A DNA stretch of 64,000 bases, from positions 1 through 64,000 of IMG/VR virus record IMGVR_UViG_3300045988_089718. One strand, 5' to 3'. Origin of the DNA: a virus. This document shows, in pieces, positions 1,839 to 8,189 of this stretch. The notes under the pieces were generated by a model. The model had not been told where the DNA came from. It did not search any database and was given only the letters and a program-made list of their open reading frames with translations. The translations under genes and the position numbers were made by a program. Within the stretch, counting starts at the first letter, position 1. Every line of letters starts with the position of its first letter.

Positions 1839-1868
1839 GCTAGTTCGGTCTGTGATAGATAGGGCTAG
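1839..1868 (+). repeat. Hairpin family member A1: stem CTAG/CTAG around conserved loop TTCGGTCTGTGATAGATAGG
   Basis: Read directly; conserved 20-nt loop shared with copies at 1924, 6134, 6317, 7968 and 8162, with a different stem at each copy. Confidence 0.7.
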
Positions 1869-1923
1869 TTACTTTAGTAATCTATTATGTCCATAAGCAC
1901 AATAGATTACAAAGACAAATATT

Positions 1924-1952
1924 AGAGTTCGGTCTGTGATAGATAGGACTCT
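1924..1952 (+). repeat. Hairpin family member A2: stem AGAG/CTCT around loop TTCGGTCTGTGATAGATAGGA
   Basis: Same loop as A1 with a different, covarying stem. Confidence 0.7.
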
Positions 1953-2044
1953 AGTGTAAACCTACATCCTGCATATCCAAAGTAGCAGACTCTTAACGAG
2001 AAAGGTGATGGCACATTATTAATAATTAAATAGTTTAAACAAAA

Positions 2045-2215
2045 ATGGAGACAAAAGACATTATTAAGATTACAGCATTAGTCTTTTCTAAAAAGAAAAC
2101 TATTGCACAAGTTTGCCGAGAGTACAAAGCTATTCATGGTAAAGAACTTCCAATTAAAAGTGACTTAGAAACATTACAGGCACAATTATCTTTGGGAGGA
2201 ATTTTTCAATGGTAA
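2045..2215 (+). CDS. small hypothetical protein (56 aa)
   Basis: ATG ORF (METKDIIKITALVF...) directly upstream of and overlapping the 2209 gene; below the ORF-track size cutoff. Confidence 0.35.
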   Translation: METKDIIKITALVFSKKKTIAQVCREYKAIHGKELPIKSDLETLQAQLSLGGIFQW

Positions 2216-2568
2216 CGATGAATCATAACACCTTGGGAGAATTAGTAATAATGCTCTCAGCACAGATTGATGCTGAGTACAATGTTTCTAAGACTACACA
2301 TTCTAACTATGCTAATGCTTTTAATAAGAAATATCAATATCTTAATAATACATTAAGAATTATTTCTGGAGAAAGTGTAAAAGGAGGAACATTTGCATTA
2401 TATACTAGAAATCCTTTACTAGTGTTATCAGGACTAATTATGGATAAGTACAAGAAAATATTATTTACAGATATAAAAGGTAATACTTTTGTTGTAAATA
2501 ATGTTAAATGGCTTTACCAATATATGAGTTCTAAAAACATTAATACAGAACCAAGAATATATGGATAA
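2209..2568 (+). CDS. hypothetical protein (119 aa)
   Basis: ORF in array. Confidence 0.5.
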   Translation: MVTMNHNTLGELVIMLSAQIDAEYNVSKTTHSNYANAFNKKYQYLNNTLRIISGESVKGGTFALYTRNPLLVLSGLIMDKYKKILFTDIKGNTFVVNNVKWLYQYMSSKNINTEPRIYG

Positions 2569-2959
2569 AGGTTTGCTGGGAATTGTTATACTTGCTTTTA
2601 TTTTATGTGTGATTTGGACTATTGCCGATCATAATAAAGTAATGAAACAAGTAAAACTTGATCAACTAAGAGACATAAAAAGCAATATAAATAATGCTTT
2701 AAGTCTCTACGACTGTTTGTATATACATATTAATATGTATAGTAAAGGATTTACTGGGAGTAAATCTTTGGCATCTGATGGAATAGTATTTCTGTTAGAT
2801 AACTTATCATCTAAAACTGTAATGTTCAAAGAGGGAACTTTAGAATATATCGAAGGTCATTATGAAGCTGATTCTGAAACTTATAAAACAGCATTAGCTA
2901 TATATAAATCTAGATTAAATTCTGAAGTTGATCTTGAACTAGATAGATATAACTATTAA
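2561..2959 (+). CDS. hypothetical membrane-anchored protein (132 aa)
   Basis: N-terminal hydrophobic segment LLGIVILAFILCVIWTIA; overlaps previous gene by 8 nt. Confidence 0.5.
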   Translation: MDKGLLGIVILAFILCVIWTIADHNKVMKQVKLDQLRDIKSNINNALSLYDCLYIHINMYSKGFTGSKSLASDGIVFLLDNLSSKTVMFKEGTLEYIEGHYEADSETYKTALAIYKSRLNSEVDLELDRYNY

Positions 2960-2970
2960 TTTTAAAAATT

Positions 2971-3366
2971 ATGGAATTATTATTTAATGTTAAACAGAAA
3001 AATGTTGTGGCTAAGATTAAGGAAGACTACTTCTTTCTTAGCAAGAAACCAAAGAAACTAGAGTTTGCTGATGAAAAGCATAAAACTCTAGTCTTAAAAC
3101 ATTTTAAGACTCTGAAACCAACTATTGAGGAGCATTCAGTTATTGATGAATCATTAACTGTAGATGAGTGGAAAGATTTTCCAGTATGGTTAGAAAATGA
3201 ATCTAATGGTGCTGAAGGGAATCTTGAGATTACTAAATTTGCTTATGGTAATATTAAACTGTATGTAAATGGGGGATGTCTTTGTGGCAATGTTCCAGAA
3301 TATGCTTTAAAAGGCATCATCGAGTTATTCAAACAATCTAAAACGAAAGAAAATGCAGACAATTAA
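2971..3366 (+). CDS. hypothetical protein (131 aa)
   Basis: ORF in array. Confidence 0.5.
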   Translation: MELLFNVKQKNVVAKIKEDYFFLSKKPKKLEFADEKHKTLVLKHFKTLKPTIEEHSVIDESLTVDEWKDFPVWLENESNGAEGNLEITKFAYGNIKLYVNGGCLCGNVPEYALKGIIELFKQSKTKENADN

Positions 3367-3868
3367 GAAAGTAAAGTACAACATTGAGAGAGTTGGTAAC
3401 AGTACATTTTGTACTATGTCTTGTGATCTGGAATATATAATGGGTCACTTAGAAGGAGCTAATGTAAAGGTTTCAGAAGCTGACACTTCTGTACTTTTTA
3501 AAATTGCGAATTCTAAAGAGAGAAAGATTTTTATTAAGAATCTTATTCCTTGGGGACTTACTGTTGATAATTCTACTATTACAATCGTTGCTAAAATTAC
3601 TTTAAGTAAAAATGACAAGGACGACCAGGCAGTAGCTAATCAAATTGTAAGAGACAAAGCTATGCACACTATGTGTAAAGTTATTGCAAATGCTCTGCAT
3701 CAAGCTTTAGAATCTACTTATAATAGAGTAGCTAAAGTAAACAATATTATTGATAAGTTGGATCATATTGCTTACTATTCAAAATATAGTGAGAGTGACA
3801 CAACTTGTGATCTTGGGGATTGTTCAGATCCAGGAGATGATGATGTAGATGTTACAGACGTACTATAA
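3353..3868 (+). CDS. hypothetical protein with acidic C-terminus (171 aa)
   Basis: ORF; C-terminal DPGDDDVDVTDVL. Confidence 0.5.
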   Translation: MQTIKKVKYNIERVGNSTFCTMSCDLEYIMGHLEGANVKVSEADTSVLFKIANSKERKIFIKNLIPWGLTVDNSTITIVAKITLSKNDKDDQAVANQIVRDKAMHTMCKVIANALHQALESTYNRVAKVNNIIDKLDHIAYYSKYSESDTTCDLGDCSDPGDDDVDVTDVL

Positions 3869-3983
3869 AACTGTCTTTGTATTGTATTAAAGTTTAAAAT
3901 TTGTAAAATATAACGATTTAAACTATAAAATTTGAAATTAACAAATTTTTACTTTTACAATGGATATTTGAAACTATAGTAGA

Positions 3984-4247
3984 GTGTTGTTGAGAAACAA
4001 TGCTCTATATACTATTAACTTTATAAAAATTATAATTATGAAAGTTTTAAGAAAGATATATAATGTTATTAACAATAGCATTCAGTCTCGTGTAGTCAAT
4101 TCTAAAGAAGAGGCTAACAAATACATTATTTCGCTCAATAGAACTTTAGAAAATAAAGTATCTCTTGAGACAGTAAATAATAAACAGATAGAAGCCATTA
4201 AAATTAATGGTAAATGGTGTATATCTGAAACTGAAATAATAGAGTAA
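3984..4247 (+). CDS. hypothetical protein (87 aa)
   Basis: ORF before the tRNA cluster. Confidence 0.4.
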   Translation: MLLRNNALYTINFIKIIIMKVLRKIYNVINNSIQSRVVNSKEEANKYIISLNRTLENKVSLETVNNKQIEAIKINGKWCISETEIIE

Positions 4248-4273
4248 TTCTGTAAAGTTCATATATATTGTTG

Positions 4274-4296
4274 GCAACTAGCAGACAATTAGTTGC
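4274..4296 (+). repeat. Perfect palindrome GCAACTA-GCAGACAAT-TAGTTGC immediately upstream of tRNA-Arg; copy 1 of 2
   Basis: About 30 nt block ATATTGTTGGCAACTAGCAGAnAATTAGTTGC repeated at 7581-7613, both times directly 5' of a tRNA. Confidence 0.6.
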
Positions 4297-4300
4297 ACTT

Positions 4301-7186: not shown

Positions 7187-7191
7187 GAGAT

Positions 7192-7551
7192 ATGGAAATA
7201 AAAACAATACAAATTGATTCTGATACATTTTTAGTGTTTAAGGGACGAGAGTACAGACAGATAAACATAGAAGACATTGTATGTTTAAAAACATCTGGTA
7301 AATATAGTACTATAATAGATGTTCATGGCTATAAAATTGATGTGTGTTGTTCATTAAAAGAAATTACACATGTTTTATGTATTGATTTTATTCTTGCAAC
7401 ACAAGGATTTTTGATAAATCATAAATACATATCTGAGATAATTAGAAAGAATGATGAAAATAATACATATATCTTAAAATTAAATGATGATATTCATACA
7501 ACTGTGGATATTTCACTACATATAGCTACAAACATGTTAAAACAATTGTAA
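7192..7551 (+). CDS. hypothetical protein (119 aa)
   Basis: ORF embedded in the tRNA cluster. Confidence 0.5.
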   Translation: MEIKTIQIDSDTFLVFKGREYRQINIEDIVCLKTSGKYSTIIDVHGYKIDVCCSLKEITHVLCIDFILATQGFLINHKYISEIIRKNDENNTYILKLNDDIHTTVDISLHIATNMLKQL

Positions 7552-7590
7552 TACCATAATAGTTTAAGGTTTATAAAATAAATATTGTTG

Positions 7591-7613
7591 GCAACTAGCA
7601 GATAATTAGTTGC
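7591..7613 (+). repeat. Palindrome GCAACTA-GCAGATAAT-TAGTTGC upstream of tRNA-Leu; copy 2 of the 4274 element
   Basis: Near-identical roughly 30-nt block with the same position relative to a tRNA start. Confidence 0.6.
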
Positions 7614-7618
7614 TATCT

Positions 7619-7704
7619 GGCTCAGTGGTGGAATTGGTAGACACGAGGGACTTAAAATCCCTTGACCAGGAATGGTCGTGCAAGTTCGATTCTTGTCTGA
7701 GCTA
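7619..7704 (+). tRNA. tRNA-Leu (anticodon TAA), type II
   Basis: D loop TGGTGGAATTGGTAGACAC typical of tRNA-Leu; anticodon stem AGGGA/TCCCT with loop CTTAAAA; acceptor GGCTCAG/CTGAGCT (G1-U72). Confidence 0.85.
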
Positions 7705-7719
7705 CAATAATAAACTAAC

Positions 7720-7824
7720 TTAAATATGGCGGAACTGGTATACGGCAGTAGATTGACGGAAGCGCCTCTAAAGTCGTCACTAAATATTTCTTGAGGATTA
7801 AGGGTTCGAATCCCTTTATTTAAG
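7720..7824 (+). tRNA. tRNA-like gene, non-canonical (105 nt; stem TGACG/CGTCA enclosing 16 nt)
   Basis: Perfect A/T acceptor TTAAATA/TATTTAA; T arm AAGGG-TTCGAAT-CCCTT; internal architecture not resolvable by hand (possible intron or long variable arm). Confidence 0.45.
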
Positions 7825-7967
7825 TGGTTTATTTAAGATATTACATTATGATAAAATGGTTATTTGAGTATCTATGAGTGTTTTAAACTCATATTAATTC
7901 ATTAATTTGTGAAAATTGATGAATTTCTTGTAATTATCTATGTCTAGTCAAGGGTGACTAAAAGCTA

Positions 7968-7997
7968 ACTCACATTGCTTGTGAAAGTAGTATGAGT
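7968..7997 (+). repeat. Hairpin family member B1: stem ACTCA/TGAGT around loop CATTGCTTGTGAAAGTAGTA
   Basis: Loop shares the TTGTGAaAGTAG core with the A-type hairpins; flanked by TTAAATAAGGCT, which is also found at 8149. Confidence 0.6.
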
Positions 7998-8035
7998 TTT
8001 TAAATAAGGCTATATAGCAATACTAGTATAAATAG

Positions 8036-8115
8036 AAATGTGTAGCTCAAGTCTAGTGGGTAGAGCGCTGAGTATATGAACTCAGAGGTTGGCAGTTCGA
8101 ATCTGTCCGCATTTC
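8036..8115 (+). tRNA. tRNA with atypical anticodon loop (8-nt TATATGAA or 6-nt ATATGA) and a 14-nt D loop
   Basis: Acceptor AAATGTG/CGCATTT; D stem GCTC/GAGC; anticodon stem CTGAG/CTCAG; T arm GGCAG-TTCGAAT-CTGTC. Confidence 0.5.
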
Positions 8116-8161
8116 CTTCTATCATACATTTTAATTTTTTAAGTTATTAAATAAGGCTCAA

Positions 8162-8189
8162 AGAGGTTTGCTTGTGAAAGTAGAACTCT
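8162..8189 (+). repeat. Hairpin family member B2: stem AGAG/CTCT around loop GTTTGCTTGTGAAAGTAGAA
   Basis: Same loop core as B1 with a covarying stem. Confidence 0.6.

What the first reader, a model, noticed from the sequence alone, without database searches (positions are those of the whole stretch)
1839..8189. Family of six hairpins with covarying stems and a conserved 17-21-nt loop in intergenic DNA around the tRNA cluster
Six copies sit at 1839-1868, 1924-1952, 6134-6162, 6317-6342, 7968-7997 and 8162-8189. Each has a 4-5 bp stem that differs in sequence but stays complementary (CTAG/CTAG, AGAG/CTCT, GATTC/GAATC, GCTTC/GAAGC, ACTCA/TGAGT, AGAG/CTCT). The stem encloses a loop sharing the core T-T-s-G-y-y-T-G-T-G-A-w-A-G-(A)-T-A-G-r. 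Compensatory stem changes with a fixed loop argue for a functional structured element (RNA processing or recognition site, protein-binding hairpin, promoter or terminator-antiterminator element), not random palindromes. Four copies lie immediately 5' of tRNA genes and two lie in a 350-nt ORF-free region (1690-2044).
Basis: seen in the sequence. Interest (0 to 1): 0.7.

Follow-up and report, generated by a model that had tools for sequence, protein, structure and literature searches.

The report
GUGA-capped RNA hairpins in gut phages
The six repeats are real and are members of a large, apparently undescribed family of sense-strand RNA hairpins with a conserved tip, found in many Bacteroidales gut phages either as terminator-like hairpins after genes or a few bases in front of phage tRNA genes.

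Summary
The six copies exist where stated, all on the coding strand, and their stems do covary. The structure was misread, though. With G·U pairs allowed, the "17-21-nt loop" is the upper part of one 12-14-bp helix with a single N•A mismatch, capped by a GUGA (GNRA) tetraloop. The window holds two more diverged copies: 7896-7925, and 53325-53354, which has terminator form.

The family reaches far beyond this phage. It occurs in 12 relatives, in cultured Bacteroides phage DAC19, in a crAss-like phage and in over 100 IMG/VR contigs. I collected 147 distinct members. On 97 distinct sequences from diverse contigs, 97.8% of cells pair and all 12 pairs show compensatory changes. Lower stems vary freely; the tip (Y-N-G-YYY-GUGA-RRR-U-A-G) is conserved, with a nearly invariant G·U.

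The sense strand folds far better than the antisense strand, so this is an RNA-level element. About half of the non-tRNA copies are followed by T-rich sequence, and the annotated ones lie after stop codons. About 30% of all copies end 2-5 nt before a tRNA.

Best reading: a hairpin that forms or protects RNA 3' ends, by termination or by RNase P cleavage, with a tip recognised by an unknown factor. There is no Rfam match and I found no literature on it. The function is inferred, not shown.

The parts
1839..1869 (+). Copy 1. Hairpin GCUAGUUC-G-GUCU GUGAU AGAU-A-GGGCUAGU, in the ORF-free leader upstream of ORF 2045-2215.
   Evidence: dG -12.4, z -3.2; 36.7 bits. Damaged or absent in some relatives.
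1920..1956 (+). Copy 2. Same apical 21 nt as copy 1 on an unrelated lower stem (AGAG/CUCU, extended).
   Evidence: dG -15.2, z -4.3; 39.1 bits. In L009/L010 a recombinant between copies 1 and 2 lacks a paired lower stem.
6133..6163 (+). Copy 3. Its base lies 3-4 nt (ACU/ACUU) before tRNA-Glu(UUC), which starts at 6167/6168.
   Evidence: dG -11.9; 40 bits. Orthologues keep the spacing.
6315..6344 (+). Copy 4. A perfect 13-bp helix with a GUGA loop. Its base lies 4 nt (UAUU) before tRNA-Ser(GCU) at 6349.
   Evidence: dG -17.0, z -5.7; 40.7 bits.
7896..7925 (+). Seventh, diverged copy: AAUUCAUUAAUUU GUGA AAAUUGAUGAAUU.
   Evidence: 26.8 bits, E 2e-4; dG -10.0.
7967..7998 (+). Copy 5. Followed by UUUUUAAAU (terminator-like) and, about 39 nt on, by a tRNA-like sequence at 8037-8108.
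   Evidence: dG -12.2; 39.7 bits.
8161..8190 (+). Copy 6. Lies about 130 nt upstream of tRNA-Met at 8321.
   Evidence: dG -11.1; 41.5 bits.
53325..53360 (+). Eighth, diverged copy in terminator form: a 13-bp helix with a GUGA loop followed by a T-run, 24 nt after the stop of ORF 52621-53301.
   Evidence: 21 bits, E 0.008; dG -21.0.
6167..6243 (+). tRNA-Glu(UUC). Its 5' end, the expected RNase P site, lies 3-4 nt after copy 3.
6349..6437 (+). tRNA-Ser(GCU). Its 5' end lies 4 nt after copy 4.

Best explanation
SHOWN. The repeats are sense-strand hairpins of 12-14 bp with two parts. The lower stem of 7-8 bp is free to vary as long as it pairs. The apical domain is conserved: 5'-Y N G Y Y Y [G U G A] R R R U A G-3'. 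It consists of a Y·G/C-G pair, an N•A mismatch, an almost invariant G·U wobble, three pyrimidine-purine pairs and a GNRA tetraloop. The family is widespread in phages of Bacteroidales.

INFERRED. The hairpin acts in RNA as a module that makes or protects 3' ends.
- Where a U-run follows, it works as an intrinsic-terminator-type hairpin at gene ends. This is the form seen in DAC19, in about half of the non-tRNA copies, and at window 53325.
- Where a tRNA follows after 2-5 nt, as at window 6133 and 6315, RNase P cleavage at the tRNA 5' end would leave the hairpin plus a 2-5-nt U-ended tail. That tail is too short for 3' exonucleases to engage, so cleavage would give the same kind of end as termination.
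- The conserved tip, with its weakened wobble/mismatch site and GNRA loop, is most likely the docking site of a still unknown host or phage factor that modulates this step.
For: Structure and selection.
- 83 of 83 model hits in the window and 12 relatives are on the + strand. On 48 distinct sequences 98% of cells pair, and 10 of 12 pairs show compensatory changes; slid controls give 40-46%.
- On 97 distinct sequences from diverse IMG/VR contigs, 97.8% of cells pair and all 12 pairs show compensatory changes. The lower-stem pairs use all four Watson-Crick types. G·U occurs at the wobble position in 95 of 97.
- Loops are GTGA 120, GTGAT 14, GCGA 7, GTGAC 3, GCGAT 1, GTAA 1, GAGA 1. All are G-N-R-A, with or without one extra base.

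RNA or sense strand.
- The sense fold is more stable than the antisense fold in 138 of 139 members (-13.2 against -6.5 kcal/mol). G·U cells number 338 against 5 A·C.
- Copies lie on the coding strand: 52 against 8 by a crude ORF measure, and all hits in DAC19, where all 266 annotated features are on one strand.

Terminator form.
- In DAC19, GTGA is the commonest tetraloop among hairpins of at least 10 bp on the coding strand (11 there, 0 on the other strand).
- The intergenic DAC19 copies lie 12-60 nt after stop codons, and most are followed by T-runs. One is followed by a second terminator-like hairpin and then a Bacteroides-type TTTG...TAnnTTTG promoter.
- 52 of 103 non-tRNA members have at least 5 T in the next 9 nt.
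- The window copy at 53325 has this form.

tRNA junction.
- 44 of 147 members abut a tRNA. The gap mode is 4 nt, the distance from loop to tRNA +1 is 16-17 nt in 24 of 44, and U occupies position -1 in 37 of the 42 with a spacer.
- In the window, 8 of 14 first-in-run tRNA/tmRNA genes have a perfect hairpin ending 2-5 nt upstream, against 9.5% of random positions (P about 1e-5).

Processing context. Hairpin-bearing loci are ncRNA islands with tRNA arrays, permuted tmRNA and hammerhead or twister-like ribozymes.

Factor recognition.
- The identical 16-mer sits on 60 unrelated lower stems.
- Of 123 matches to the 16-mer in IMG/VR, 109 have flush complementary flanks. Only about 37 of 119 do in 596 Gb of bacterial genomes, and those are mostly Bacteroidales.
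Against: - No transcript ends were mapped, so termination, RNase P cleavage and protection are all inferred.
- In the window clade most copies lack a real U-tract. They cannot be efficient terminators there.
- Several DAC19 copies lie only 18-28 nt before the next start codon, so the downstream genes need read-through.
- Copies 3 and 4 sit in tRNA-tRNA spacers, where there is no obvious upstream RNA worth protecting.
- Copies 1 and 2 are deleted, truncated or recombined in several relatives, so at that site the element is dispensable.
- No candidate binding protein was found. Ten neighbouring ORFs gave only a LytTR domain, and no protein family recurs next to the hairpins.
- A hairpin 2-6 nt upstream of tRNAs is enriched but not universal (60 of 210).
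Confidence: 0.45

Rival explanations
1. Regulatory protein-recruiting hairpin, as in lambda N-boxB or LoaP-UNCG. The conserved tip binds a phage or host factor that rides with RNA polymerase, or alters terminator function, and so times read-through into downstream genes and tRNAs. In this TAG-recoded phage those tRNAs include the suppressor tRNA region.
For: - The tip is conserved more strictly than the neighbouring tRNA genes, on free lower stems.
- The tip combines a GNRA loop with a wobble/mismatch site, which is typical of peptide-binding RNA (own knowledge of boxB and RRE).
- There are several copies in series in co-directional early regions, with too little space for promoters after them.
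- Copies 1 and 2 lie in an operon leader downstream of a hyperconserved promoter-like block.
- There is a precedent: a tetraloop leader hairpin recruits the NusG paralogue LoaP (PMC12691694).
Against: - No N-like, NusG-like or other RNA-binding protein was found among 10 neighbouring ORFs.
- No protein family recurs near the hairpins in diverse phages.
- The helix is 13 bp against 5 bp for boxB.
- The tight 2-5-nt spacing to tRNA 5' ends is not explained.
- Copies 1 and 2 are dispensable in relatives.
Confidence: 0.2
2. An element that serves the downstream tRNA. It would be a leader hairpin that insulates the tRNA fold from AU-rich upstream RNA, improves or times RNase P processing (for example by GNRA docking on RNase P RNA), or acts as a 5'-terminal stabiliser of the precursor.
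For: - The spacing to tRNA +1 is fixed, with U at -1.
- tRNAs that directly follow another tRNA lack the hairpin, while many first-in-run tRNAs and the tmRNA have some hairpin at the same distance.
- Copies occur in tRNA-tRNA spacers where nothing upstream needs protecting.
- The same phage group has evolved dedicated ribozymes for the tRNA 3' side (PMC10879173).
Against: - About 70% of family members are not next to a tRNA, and many are plain terminator-like hairpins after protein genes.
- Only 60 of 210 isolated tRNAs in motif-bearing loci have such a hairpin.
- The DAC19 tRNAs lack it.
- No promoter motif sits at a fixed distance upstream.
Confidence: 0.15
3. A DNA-level hairpin. It would be an extruded single-stranded structure used as a promoter by a phage RNA polymerase (as in N4) or as a recombination or priming site (like attC, REP or ssi).
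For: - A conserved top on covarying stems, at a fixed distance (16-17 nt) from loop to tRNA +1, resembles the geometry of N4 hairpin promoters (own knowledge of N4).
- The crAss-like virion polymerase prefers single-stranded templates and its early promoters are unknown.
- Recombination between copies 1 and 2 occurred within the conserved top.
Against: - Pairing holds only on the non-template (sense) strand. On the template strand the two wobbles and the mismatch become three consecutive mismatches.
- The loop varies only within G-N-R-A, which is the signature of an RNA tetraloop.
- T-runs flush with the stem, after stop codons, are explained by termination and not by initiation.
- N4 promoters have 5-7-bp stems and 3-nt loops.
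Confidence: 0.07
4. A selfish or neutral repeat. It would be a small palindromic element, or a hairpin top spread by recombination or gene conversion between phages, with no function of its own.
For: - Hairpins are gained and lost between close relatives. One example is the copy before tRNA-Gln, present in L008-L011 but absent from the window.
- Copies 1 and 2 are decaying.
- The identical 16-mer occurs in unrelated phages.
Against: - Only the apical part is shared, so no whole element is moving.
- Loop changes stay within GNRA, the G·U is kept in 95 of 97 sequences, and stems are repaired by compensatory changes at all 12 pairs.
- The element has a strict strand and position preference.
- No transposase or RAYT-like gene was seen nearby.
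Confidence: 0.08

Closest known systems
Intrinsic (Rho-independent) transcription terminators
   Same: A stable hairpin in the nascent sense-strand RNA. In many family members it is followed at once by a T-run and placed 12-60 nt after a stop codon. This holds for most of the intergenic DAC19 copies, window 53325 and about half of the non-tRNA copies.
   Different: Terminators have no conserved sequence, whereas here a 16-nt apical domain with an invariant G·U and an N•A mismatch is conserved across unrelated phages. Many copies, including most of the six in the finding, have no U-tract and are followed by a tRNA or by a gene start with no room for a promoter.
Lambda nut boxB / N, and the LoaP-dfn UNCG leader hairpin (processive antitermination)
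   Same: A small hairpin whose tetraloop-type tip is conserved while the stem varies. Several copies occur in co-directional early operons that contain terminators. The LoaP precedent was read in PMC12691694.
   Different: The helix is 13 bp rather than 5 bp. No boxA partner and no cognate protein were found. Many copies themselves carry a U-run, and there is tight spacing to tRNA 5' ends.
RNase P-made 3' ends protected by an upstream structure (MALAT1/MEN-beta with mascRNA); 3' hairpins left by RNase III in T7 mRNAs; REP stabilisers (own knowledge)
   Same: A tRNA or tRNA-like structure lies directly downstream of a stable structure, so that cleavage at the tRNA 5' end would leave a protected 3' end. 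The spacing here is 2-5 nt.
   Different: This is a simple hairpin rather than a triple helix, and a bacterial phage setting. Cleavage and protection were not tested. Some copies have no evident upstream RNA to protect.
Extra-stable tetraloop hairpins in phage T4 intercistronic regions (C(UUCG)G; Tuerk et al. 1988, own knowledge)
   Same: Tetraloop-capped hairpins are over-represented on the sense strand between phage genes.
   Different: The loop is GNRA, not UUCG. The conservation extends 6 nt down each strand and includes a wobble and a mismatch that weaken the helix. That argues for recognition rather than mere stability.
Theta (HDV-like) ribozymes next to tRNAs of gut phages (PMC10879173)
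   Same: The same niche: tRNA islands of Bacteroidota-infecting, often TAG-recoded gut phages. Both are cis-RNA elements flush with a tRNA end and proposed to act in tRNA maturation.
   Different: Theta ribozymes lie at the 3' side and self-cleave. This element lies at the 5' side, is a plain hairpin with no ribozyme architecture, and has no Rfam ribozyme match on it. The paper does not mention hairpins.
N4 virion RNA polymerase hairpin promoters (own knowledge)
   Same: A conserved top, covarying stem and fixed distance to a downstream start point.
   Different: The N4 hairpin forms on the template strand with a 5-7-bp stem and a 3-nt loop. Here pairing works only on the sense strand.

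Membership tests
Intrinsic terminator | Stable hairpin formed by the nascent (sense) RNA | tested here: met
   dG -10 to -21 kcal/mol for the eight window copies. The sense fold is better than the antisense fold in 138 of 139 family members.
Intrinsic terminator | U-tract immediately 3' of the stem | tested here: inconclusive
   Met for window 53325 (T-run), for copy 5 (U5), for most of the intergenic DAC19 copies and for 52 of 103 non-tRNA members. 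Not met for copies 1, 2, 3 and 6, which have 1-4 T in the next 8 nt.
Intrinsic terminator | Position at the end of a transcription unit | tested here: inconclusive
   After stop codons in DAC19 and at 53325. But copies 3 and 4 are followed by tRNAs after 3-4 nt, and several DAC19 copies by a start codon after 18-28 nt.
Intrinsic terminator | Releases RNA polymerase in vitro or in vivo | not testable with these tools
   Needs in vitro transcription or Term-seq.
boxB/N-type or LoaP-type antitermination hairpin | Conserved tetraloop-type hairpin in the transcribed leader | tested here: inconclusive
   The GNRA tip is conserved. Only copies 1 and 2 lie in an operon leader, and the helix is much longer than in boxB.
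boxB/N-type or LoaP-type antitermination hairpin | Cognate RNA-binding antiterminator encoded by the same genome | tested here: not met
   Pfam on 10 ORFs around the copies found only a LytTR domain. No neighbour family recurs in 60 loci. Only part of the genome was examined.
N4-type hairpin promoter | Hairpin forms on the template strand; 5-7-bp stem and 3-nt loop | tested here: not met
   G·U 338 cells against A·C 5. The antisense fold is weak, and stems are 12-14 bp with a 4-nt loop.
REP/MITE-like mobile palindrome | The whole element is conserved between copies | tested here: not met
   Only the apical 16 nt is shared. The lower stems are unrelated (60 different ones on the same 16-mer).
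CRISPR repeat or solitary-repeat RNA anti-CRISPR | Matches repeats of arrays in host genomes | tested here: not met
   The 16-mer occurs once per stretch in all 119 genome hits, with no arrays.
Any Rfam 15 family | Covariance-model match | tested here: not met
   No match overlaps a copy at E up to 10 in window 1600-8500, nor at E up to 5 in three IMG/VR loci.
RNase P-coupled 3'-end module (MALAT1-mascRNA type) | tRNA or tRNA-like structure directly downstream of a protective structure | tested here: met
   Copies 3 and 4, and 44 of 147 members. Gap mode is 4 nt, and U is at -1 in 37 of the 42 with a spacer.
RNase P-coupled 3'-end module (MALAT1-mascRNA type) | RNase P cleavage yields a stable upstream RNA | not testable with these tools
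   Needs RNA end mapping or cleavage and decay assays.

The most novel reading that the evidence does not exclude
The conserved tip is the docking site of a dedicated, still unknown factor shared by Bacteroidales or their phages. It would turn one hairpin into a switchable RNA-end signal: a terminator when a U-run follows, and an RNase P-coupled 3'-end or processing signal when a tRNA follows. By this means crAss-like and other gut phages would time the expression of their tRNA islands, including suppressor tRNAs that drive TAG recoding.
Probability: 0.25. Interest if true: 0.8.

Novelty: new variant of a known kind. Interest (0 to 1): 0.65.

Why it matters
If the reading holds, this is a common and so far unnamed cis-RNA signal of the most abundant human-gut phages, including crAss-like phages, DAC19-like phages and the 170-187-kb recoded clade of this window. 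Three things would follow.
- It would give a handle on how these phages end, process and stabilise their transcripts. For Bacteroidales phages that is almost unknown.
- It would complement the theta ribozymes at the 3' side of phage tRNAs, and so bear on how suppressor tRNAs and recoding are timed.
- The strictly conserved G·U/N•A/GNRA tip predicts a specific binding partner that could be fished out directly.

Practical uses:
- The motif is an easy sequence marker for transcript boundaries when annotating gut phage genomes.
- It is a candidate for a new Rfam family.
- It can be tested in a cultured system (DAC19 on B. thetaiotaomicron).

Tried and rejected
- Chance palindromes. Rejected on the covariation and strand statistics.
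- Sigma-70-type and Bacteroides-type (TTTG...TAnnTTTG) promoters at or upstream of the hairpins. There are no consistent matches in the window, and no fixed-distance -7 box in 147 members.
- Known RNA families. Rfam gave nothing at gathering or at permissive thresholds.
- HDV-like/theta ribozyme P4 reading. The flanks lack P1/P2/P3 features, and a tRNA starts 3-4 nt after the hairpin. No HDV-type Rfam match was found.
- CRISPR-repeat mimic. There are no arrays in 185,579 genomes.
- A general host terminator motif. Only about 37 hairpin-forming copies of the 16-mer occur in 596 Gb of bacterial genomes, against at least 109 in the much smaller viral set.
- A linked binding-protein gene. Clustering of flanking ORFs gave 45 clusters from 56 proteins, and Pfam on 10 window ORFs gave nothing useful.
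- Literature. The motif string and several keyword searches returned nothing on this element. The paper describing the RAGATH motifs (Nat Chem Biol 2015) is not held, so I could not check whether one of its untested hairpin motifs is the same thing.
- "Every isolated tRNA has a leader hairpin." This is only partly true (8 of 14 in the window; 60 of 210 in other loci).

Full report

Yes. So are all ORFs of at least 250 aa and nearly all long ORFs in the window. A regular expression for the shared core finds only these six sites in 64 kb and none on the minus strand. A covariance model (R1) built from the six copies plus one orthologue rescans the whole window with filters off. It returns the six at 36.7-41.5 bits (E = 2e-8 to 4e-7). 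The best minus-strand match has E = 0.19.

- 7896-7925 (26.8 bits);
- 53325-53354 (21 bits).

**2. The anatomy was misread.**

Folded as RNA, no copy has a 17-21-nt loop. The "loop" pairs with itself through G·U wobbles. Each copy is one helix of 12-16 bp, interrupted by a single 1x1 mismatch and capped by GUGA, or by GUGAU/GCGAU in copies 1-3. Energies are -11.1 to -17.0 kcal/mol, with z-scores of -3.1 to -5.7 against dinucleotide shuffles.

The element has two parts:
- a lower stem of 7-8 bp that differs completely between copies;
- an apical domain, 5'-Y N G Y Y Y [GUGA] R R R U A G-3'. It consists of a Y·G or C-G pair, N opposite a conserved A, a G·U wobble and three pyrimidine-purine pairs that themselves covary (UCU/AGA, CUU/AAG, UUC/GAA, UUU/AAA, UAU/AUA).

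**3. Relatives of this phage.**

The window is 90.7% identical to MT835539.1 from human faeces. Eleven IMG/VR relatives, from contigs of 94-187 kb (four of them 169-187 kb), were fetched through ORF 6797-7186. In the window plus these 12 loci, all 83 model hits are on the + strand. On 48 distinct sequences, 98% of cells pair and 10 of 12 pairs show compensatory changes. Partner-slid controls give 40-46%.

Hairpins are gained and lost between relatives. A copy sits before tRNA-Gln in L008-L011 but not in the window. Copies 1 and 2 are decaying:
- a 9-nt deletion in L012;
- loss of the 3' stem in L003;
- a recombinant between copies 1 and 2, without a paired lower stem, in L009 and L010;
- absence from L011.

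**4. The family is far larger than this phage and is not tRNA-specific.**

Cultured Bacteroides phage DAC19 (178,921 bp, all 266 annotated features on one strand) has model hits only on the coding strand. GTGA is its commonest tetraloop among coding-strand hairpins of at least 10 bp: 11 there, none on the other strand. The intergenic DAC19 copies lie 12-60 nt after stop codons, and most are followed by T-runs. One is followed by a second terminator-like hairpin and then a canonical Bacteroides promoter.

- 109 of 123 matches have flush complementary flanks of at least 4 bp, mostly 6-8 or more.
- These fall on 60 unrelated lower stems.

The same exact 16-mer in 596 Gb of bacterial and archaeal genomes gives only 119 stretches.
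- 82 have no stem, which serves as a built-in chance control.
- About 37 form the hairpin. Among the records whose titles I could read, most are Bacteroidales.

So this is an element of phages or mobile elements of Bacteroidales, not a general host terminator. One locus is the epsilon crAss-like phage crAssE-Sib.

Searching 100 of the IMG/VR loci with R1 gave 172 hits. All 57 non-seed hits among the 150 aligned are on the same strand as the seed in their locus. On 97 distinct sequences:
- 97.8% of cells pair;
- all 12 pairs show compensatory changes;
- lower-stem pairs use all four Watson-Crick types;
- the wobble position is G·U in 95 of 97.

Loops across 147 distinct members are GTGA 120, GTGAT 14, GCGA 7, GTGAC 3, GCGAT 1, GTAA 1 and GAGA 1. 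All are G-N-R-A, with or without one extra base.

**5. RNA or DNA, and which strand?**

The sense strand folds better than the antisense strand in 138 of 139 members (mean -13.2 against -6.5 kcal/mol). Stems contain 338 G·U cells but only 5 A·C cells. On the template strand the two wobbles and the mismatch would become three consecutive mismatches.

Together with the restriction of the loop to GNRA and the coding-strand bias (52 against 8 by a crude ORF measure), this points to function in the transcript. A hairpin on the sense DNA strand cannot be formally excluded.

**6. Two settings.**

I classified the 147 distinct members.

(a) tRNA setting. 44 members (30%) are followed by a tRNA gene on the same strand.
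- The gap from the last paired base has its mode at 4 nt; 30 of 44 lie at 2-5 nt.
- The distance from loop to tRNA +1 is 16-17 nt in 24 of 44.
- U occupies position -1 in 37 of the 42 that have a spacer.
- The tRNAs are of many types: Glu 15, Arg 9, Gln 4, Ser 3 and others.

(b) Terminator-like setting. Of the other 103 members, 52 have at least 5 T in the next 9 nt, and 23 have a T-run of at least 4 flush with the stem.

In the window, copies 3 and 4 are of type (a). They lie 3-4 nt before tRNA-Glu and 4 nt before tRNA-Ser. The copy at 53325 is of type (b), and copy 5 is followed by U5. Copies 1, 2 and 6 have neither a tRNA nor a T-run directly after them.

More generally, 8 of 14 first-in-run tRNA/tmRNA genes in the window have some perfect hairpin ending 2-5 nt upstream, against 9.5% of random positions (P about 1e-5). 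In other motif-bearing loci the figure is 60 of 210 against 7.6% at random, and half of those 60 have GTGA loops. The rule is therefore strong but not universal.

The loci that carry the hairpin are ncRNA islands. They hold long tRNA arrays, permuted tmRNAs, RAGATH-1 and type III hammerheads, and twister-like sequences. In L045 a hammerhead starts about 10 nt after a hairpin and its T-run.

**7. How it most likely works (inferred).**

The two settings share one thing: an RNA 3' end would form just after the hairpin. In one case this happens by intrinsic termination. In the other it happens by RNase P cleavage at the tRNA 5' end, which would leave the hairpin plus a 2-5-nt U-ended tail, like a terminated transcript. 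I therefore read the element as a hairpin that forms or protects 3' ends.

The conserved tip weakens the helix, since it keeps a G·U where G-C would be stronger and also an N•A mismatch. Stability alone therefore cannot explain it. The tip is also kept identical where the neighbouring tRNA-Glu genes have diverged strongly. That argues for sequence-specific recognition by an unknown factor. No partner was found.

Weak points are listed under evidence against. The main ones are that many copies lack a U-tract, that some copies sit where nothing upstream obviously needs protecting, and that copies 1 and 2 are dispensable.

Rivals kept open are:
- a boxB/LoaP-like recruiting hairpin (for the LoaP precedent);
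- a leader element that serves the downstream tRNA;
- a DNA hairpin promoter or recombination site (for the crAss-like polymerase; disfavoured);
- a selfish repeat.

**8. Comparison with what is known.**

No Rfam 15 family matches. Searches for the sequence string and for several keyword sets found no description. The paper on theta ribozymes treats the 3' side of tRNAs in the same kind of phages and does not mention hairpins. The 2015 paper that lists the RAGATH motifs is not in the library, so overlap with one of its untested hairpin motifs cannot be excluded.

The element works most like an intrinsic-terminator or 3'-stabiliser hairpin. It fails or only partly meets the defining features of a plain terminator, a nut/boxB site, an N4 promoter, a REP element and a CRISPR repeat (see the membership table).

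**9. Verdict.**

The structural reading is corrected, and the family is greatly enlarged, to 147 distinct members in diverse Bacteroidales phages. The function is inferred, with a best-explanation confidence of 0.45. Novelty: a new variant of a known kind, namely a terminator or processing hairpin with a conserved, probably factor-recognised GNRA tip and a fixed junction with tRNA genes. Interest: 0.65.

Noticed in passing
window 4261-4296 and 7578-7613: A second hairpin family, (TATTGTTG)GCAACTA GCAGAYAAT TAGTTGC, 94% identical over 36 nt. Its base lies 4-5 nt before tRNA-Arg (4301) and tRNA-Leu (7619), the same junction geometry as the GUGA hairpins. It is confined to the window clade.
   Followed up: partly
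window 1711-1800: A block of about 90 nt that is almost invariant even in the 69%-identity relative L011. It contains the palindrome CTCTAGTACTATAGAG, then TATAAT, then TTGACA, then the hairpin CATAAG...CTTATG followed by a T-run. In L011 an ORF starts soon after it. In the window clade a segment of about 240 nt carrying copies 1 and 2 lies between it and ORF 2045. It may be a promoter, a leader or a small RNA.
   Followed up: partly
window 5405-6019: An HNH endonuclease ORF of 204 codons with two in-frame TAG codons (5456-5458 and 5756-5758), so the phage appears to be TAG-recoded. In relative L011 the counterpart of window 7719-7825 is called as a CUA-anticodon (suppressor) tRNA.
   Followed up: partly
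window 4379-4459, 4890-4971, 7719-7825: tRNA genes with extra bases in or beside the anticodon loop. ARAGORN- and 14-nt 'introns' in 4890-4971 and 7719-7825, and 4379-4459 is an 81-nt Rfam tRNA match. 4890-4971 has a 17-nt anticodon loop. This is unusual for bacteria and phages.
   Followed up: no
window 6506-6777: A non-coding stretch 85-91% identical to the 540-kb Prevotella Lak phages, which are otherwise unrelated at the DNA level. It follows tRNA-Gln directly and may hold a shared ncRNA.
   Followed up: no
window 6276-6295 (and L011 about 9345-9365): Another small hairpin, between tRNA-Glu and copy 4: AUAAAGUC AGCG GACUUUAU. In L011 its stem covaries (CAUAAUC AGCG GAUUAUG), and the following CGUUAAAGAGUUG is conserved. 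Together with copy 4 it could form a two-hairpin small RNA of about 100 nt.
   Followed up: no
window 24026-24356: A phage-encoded tmRNA (tag ARVINMTPAYQAAA). It is preceded by a 13-bp hairpin that ends 4 nt before its 5' end.
   Followed up: partly
window 63744-63971: A group I intron (Rfam 71.6 bits) near the window end.
   Followed up: no
window 8986-11183: A run of small paralogous ORFs, with units of about 430-450 nt repeated at 63-81% identity (D1-D6). This is a tandemly duplicated gene family just after the tRNA cluster.
   Followed up: no
window 7192-7551: A 119-aa protein inside the tRNA cluster with a LytTR DNA-binding domain (Pfam E 9e-7).
   Followed up: no
L045 1-1000 (IMGVR_UViG_3300045988_048366) and L076: A dense ncRNA island. 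Four GUGA hairpins are interleaved with a RAGATH-1 hammerhead (211-292, 69 bits), two twister-like sequences (386-452 and 876-934, both below the gathering score) and a permuted tmRNA further on.
   Followed up: partly
window 8417-8451 and 12153-12186: Classical 15-bp intrinsic terminators with T-runs and unrelated loops. The first closes the tRNA cluster after tRNA-Met. The phage therefore also uses ordinary terminators.
   Followed up: no
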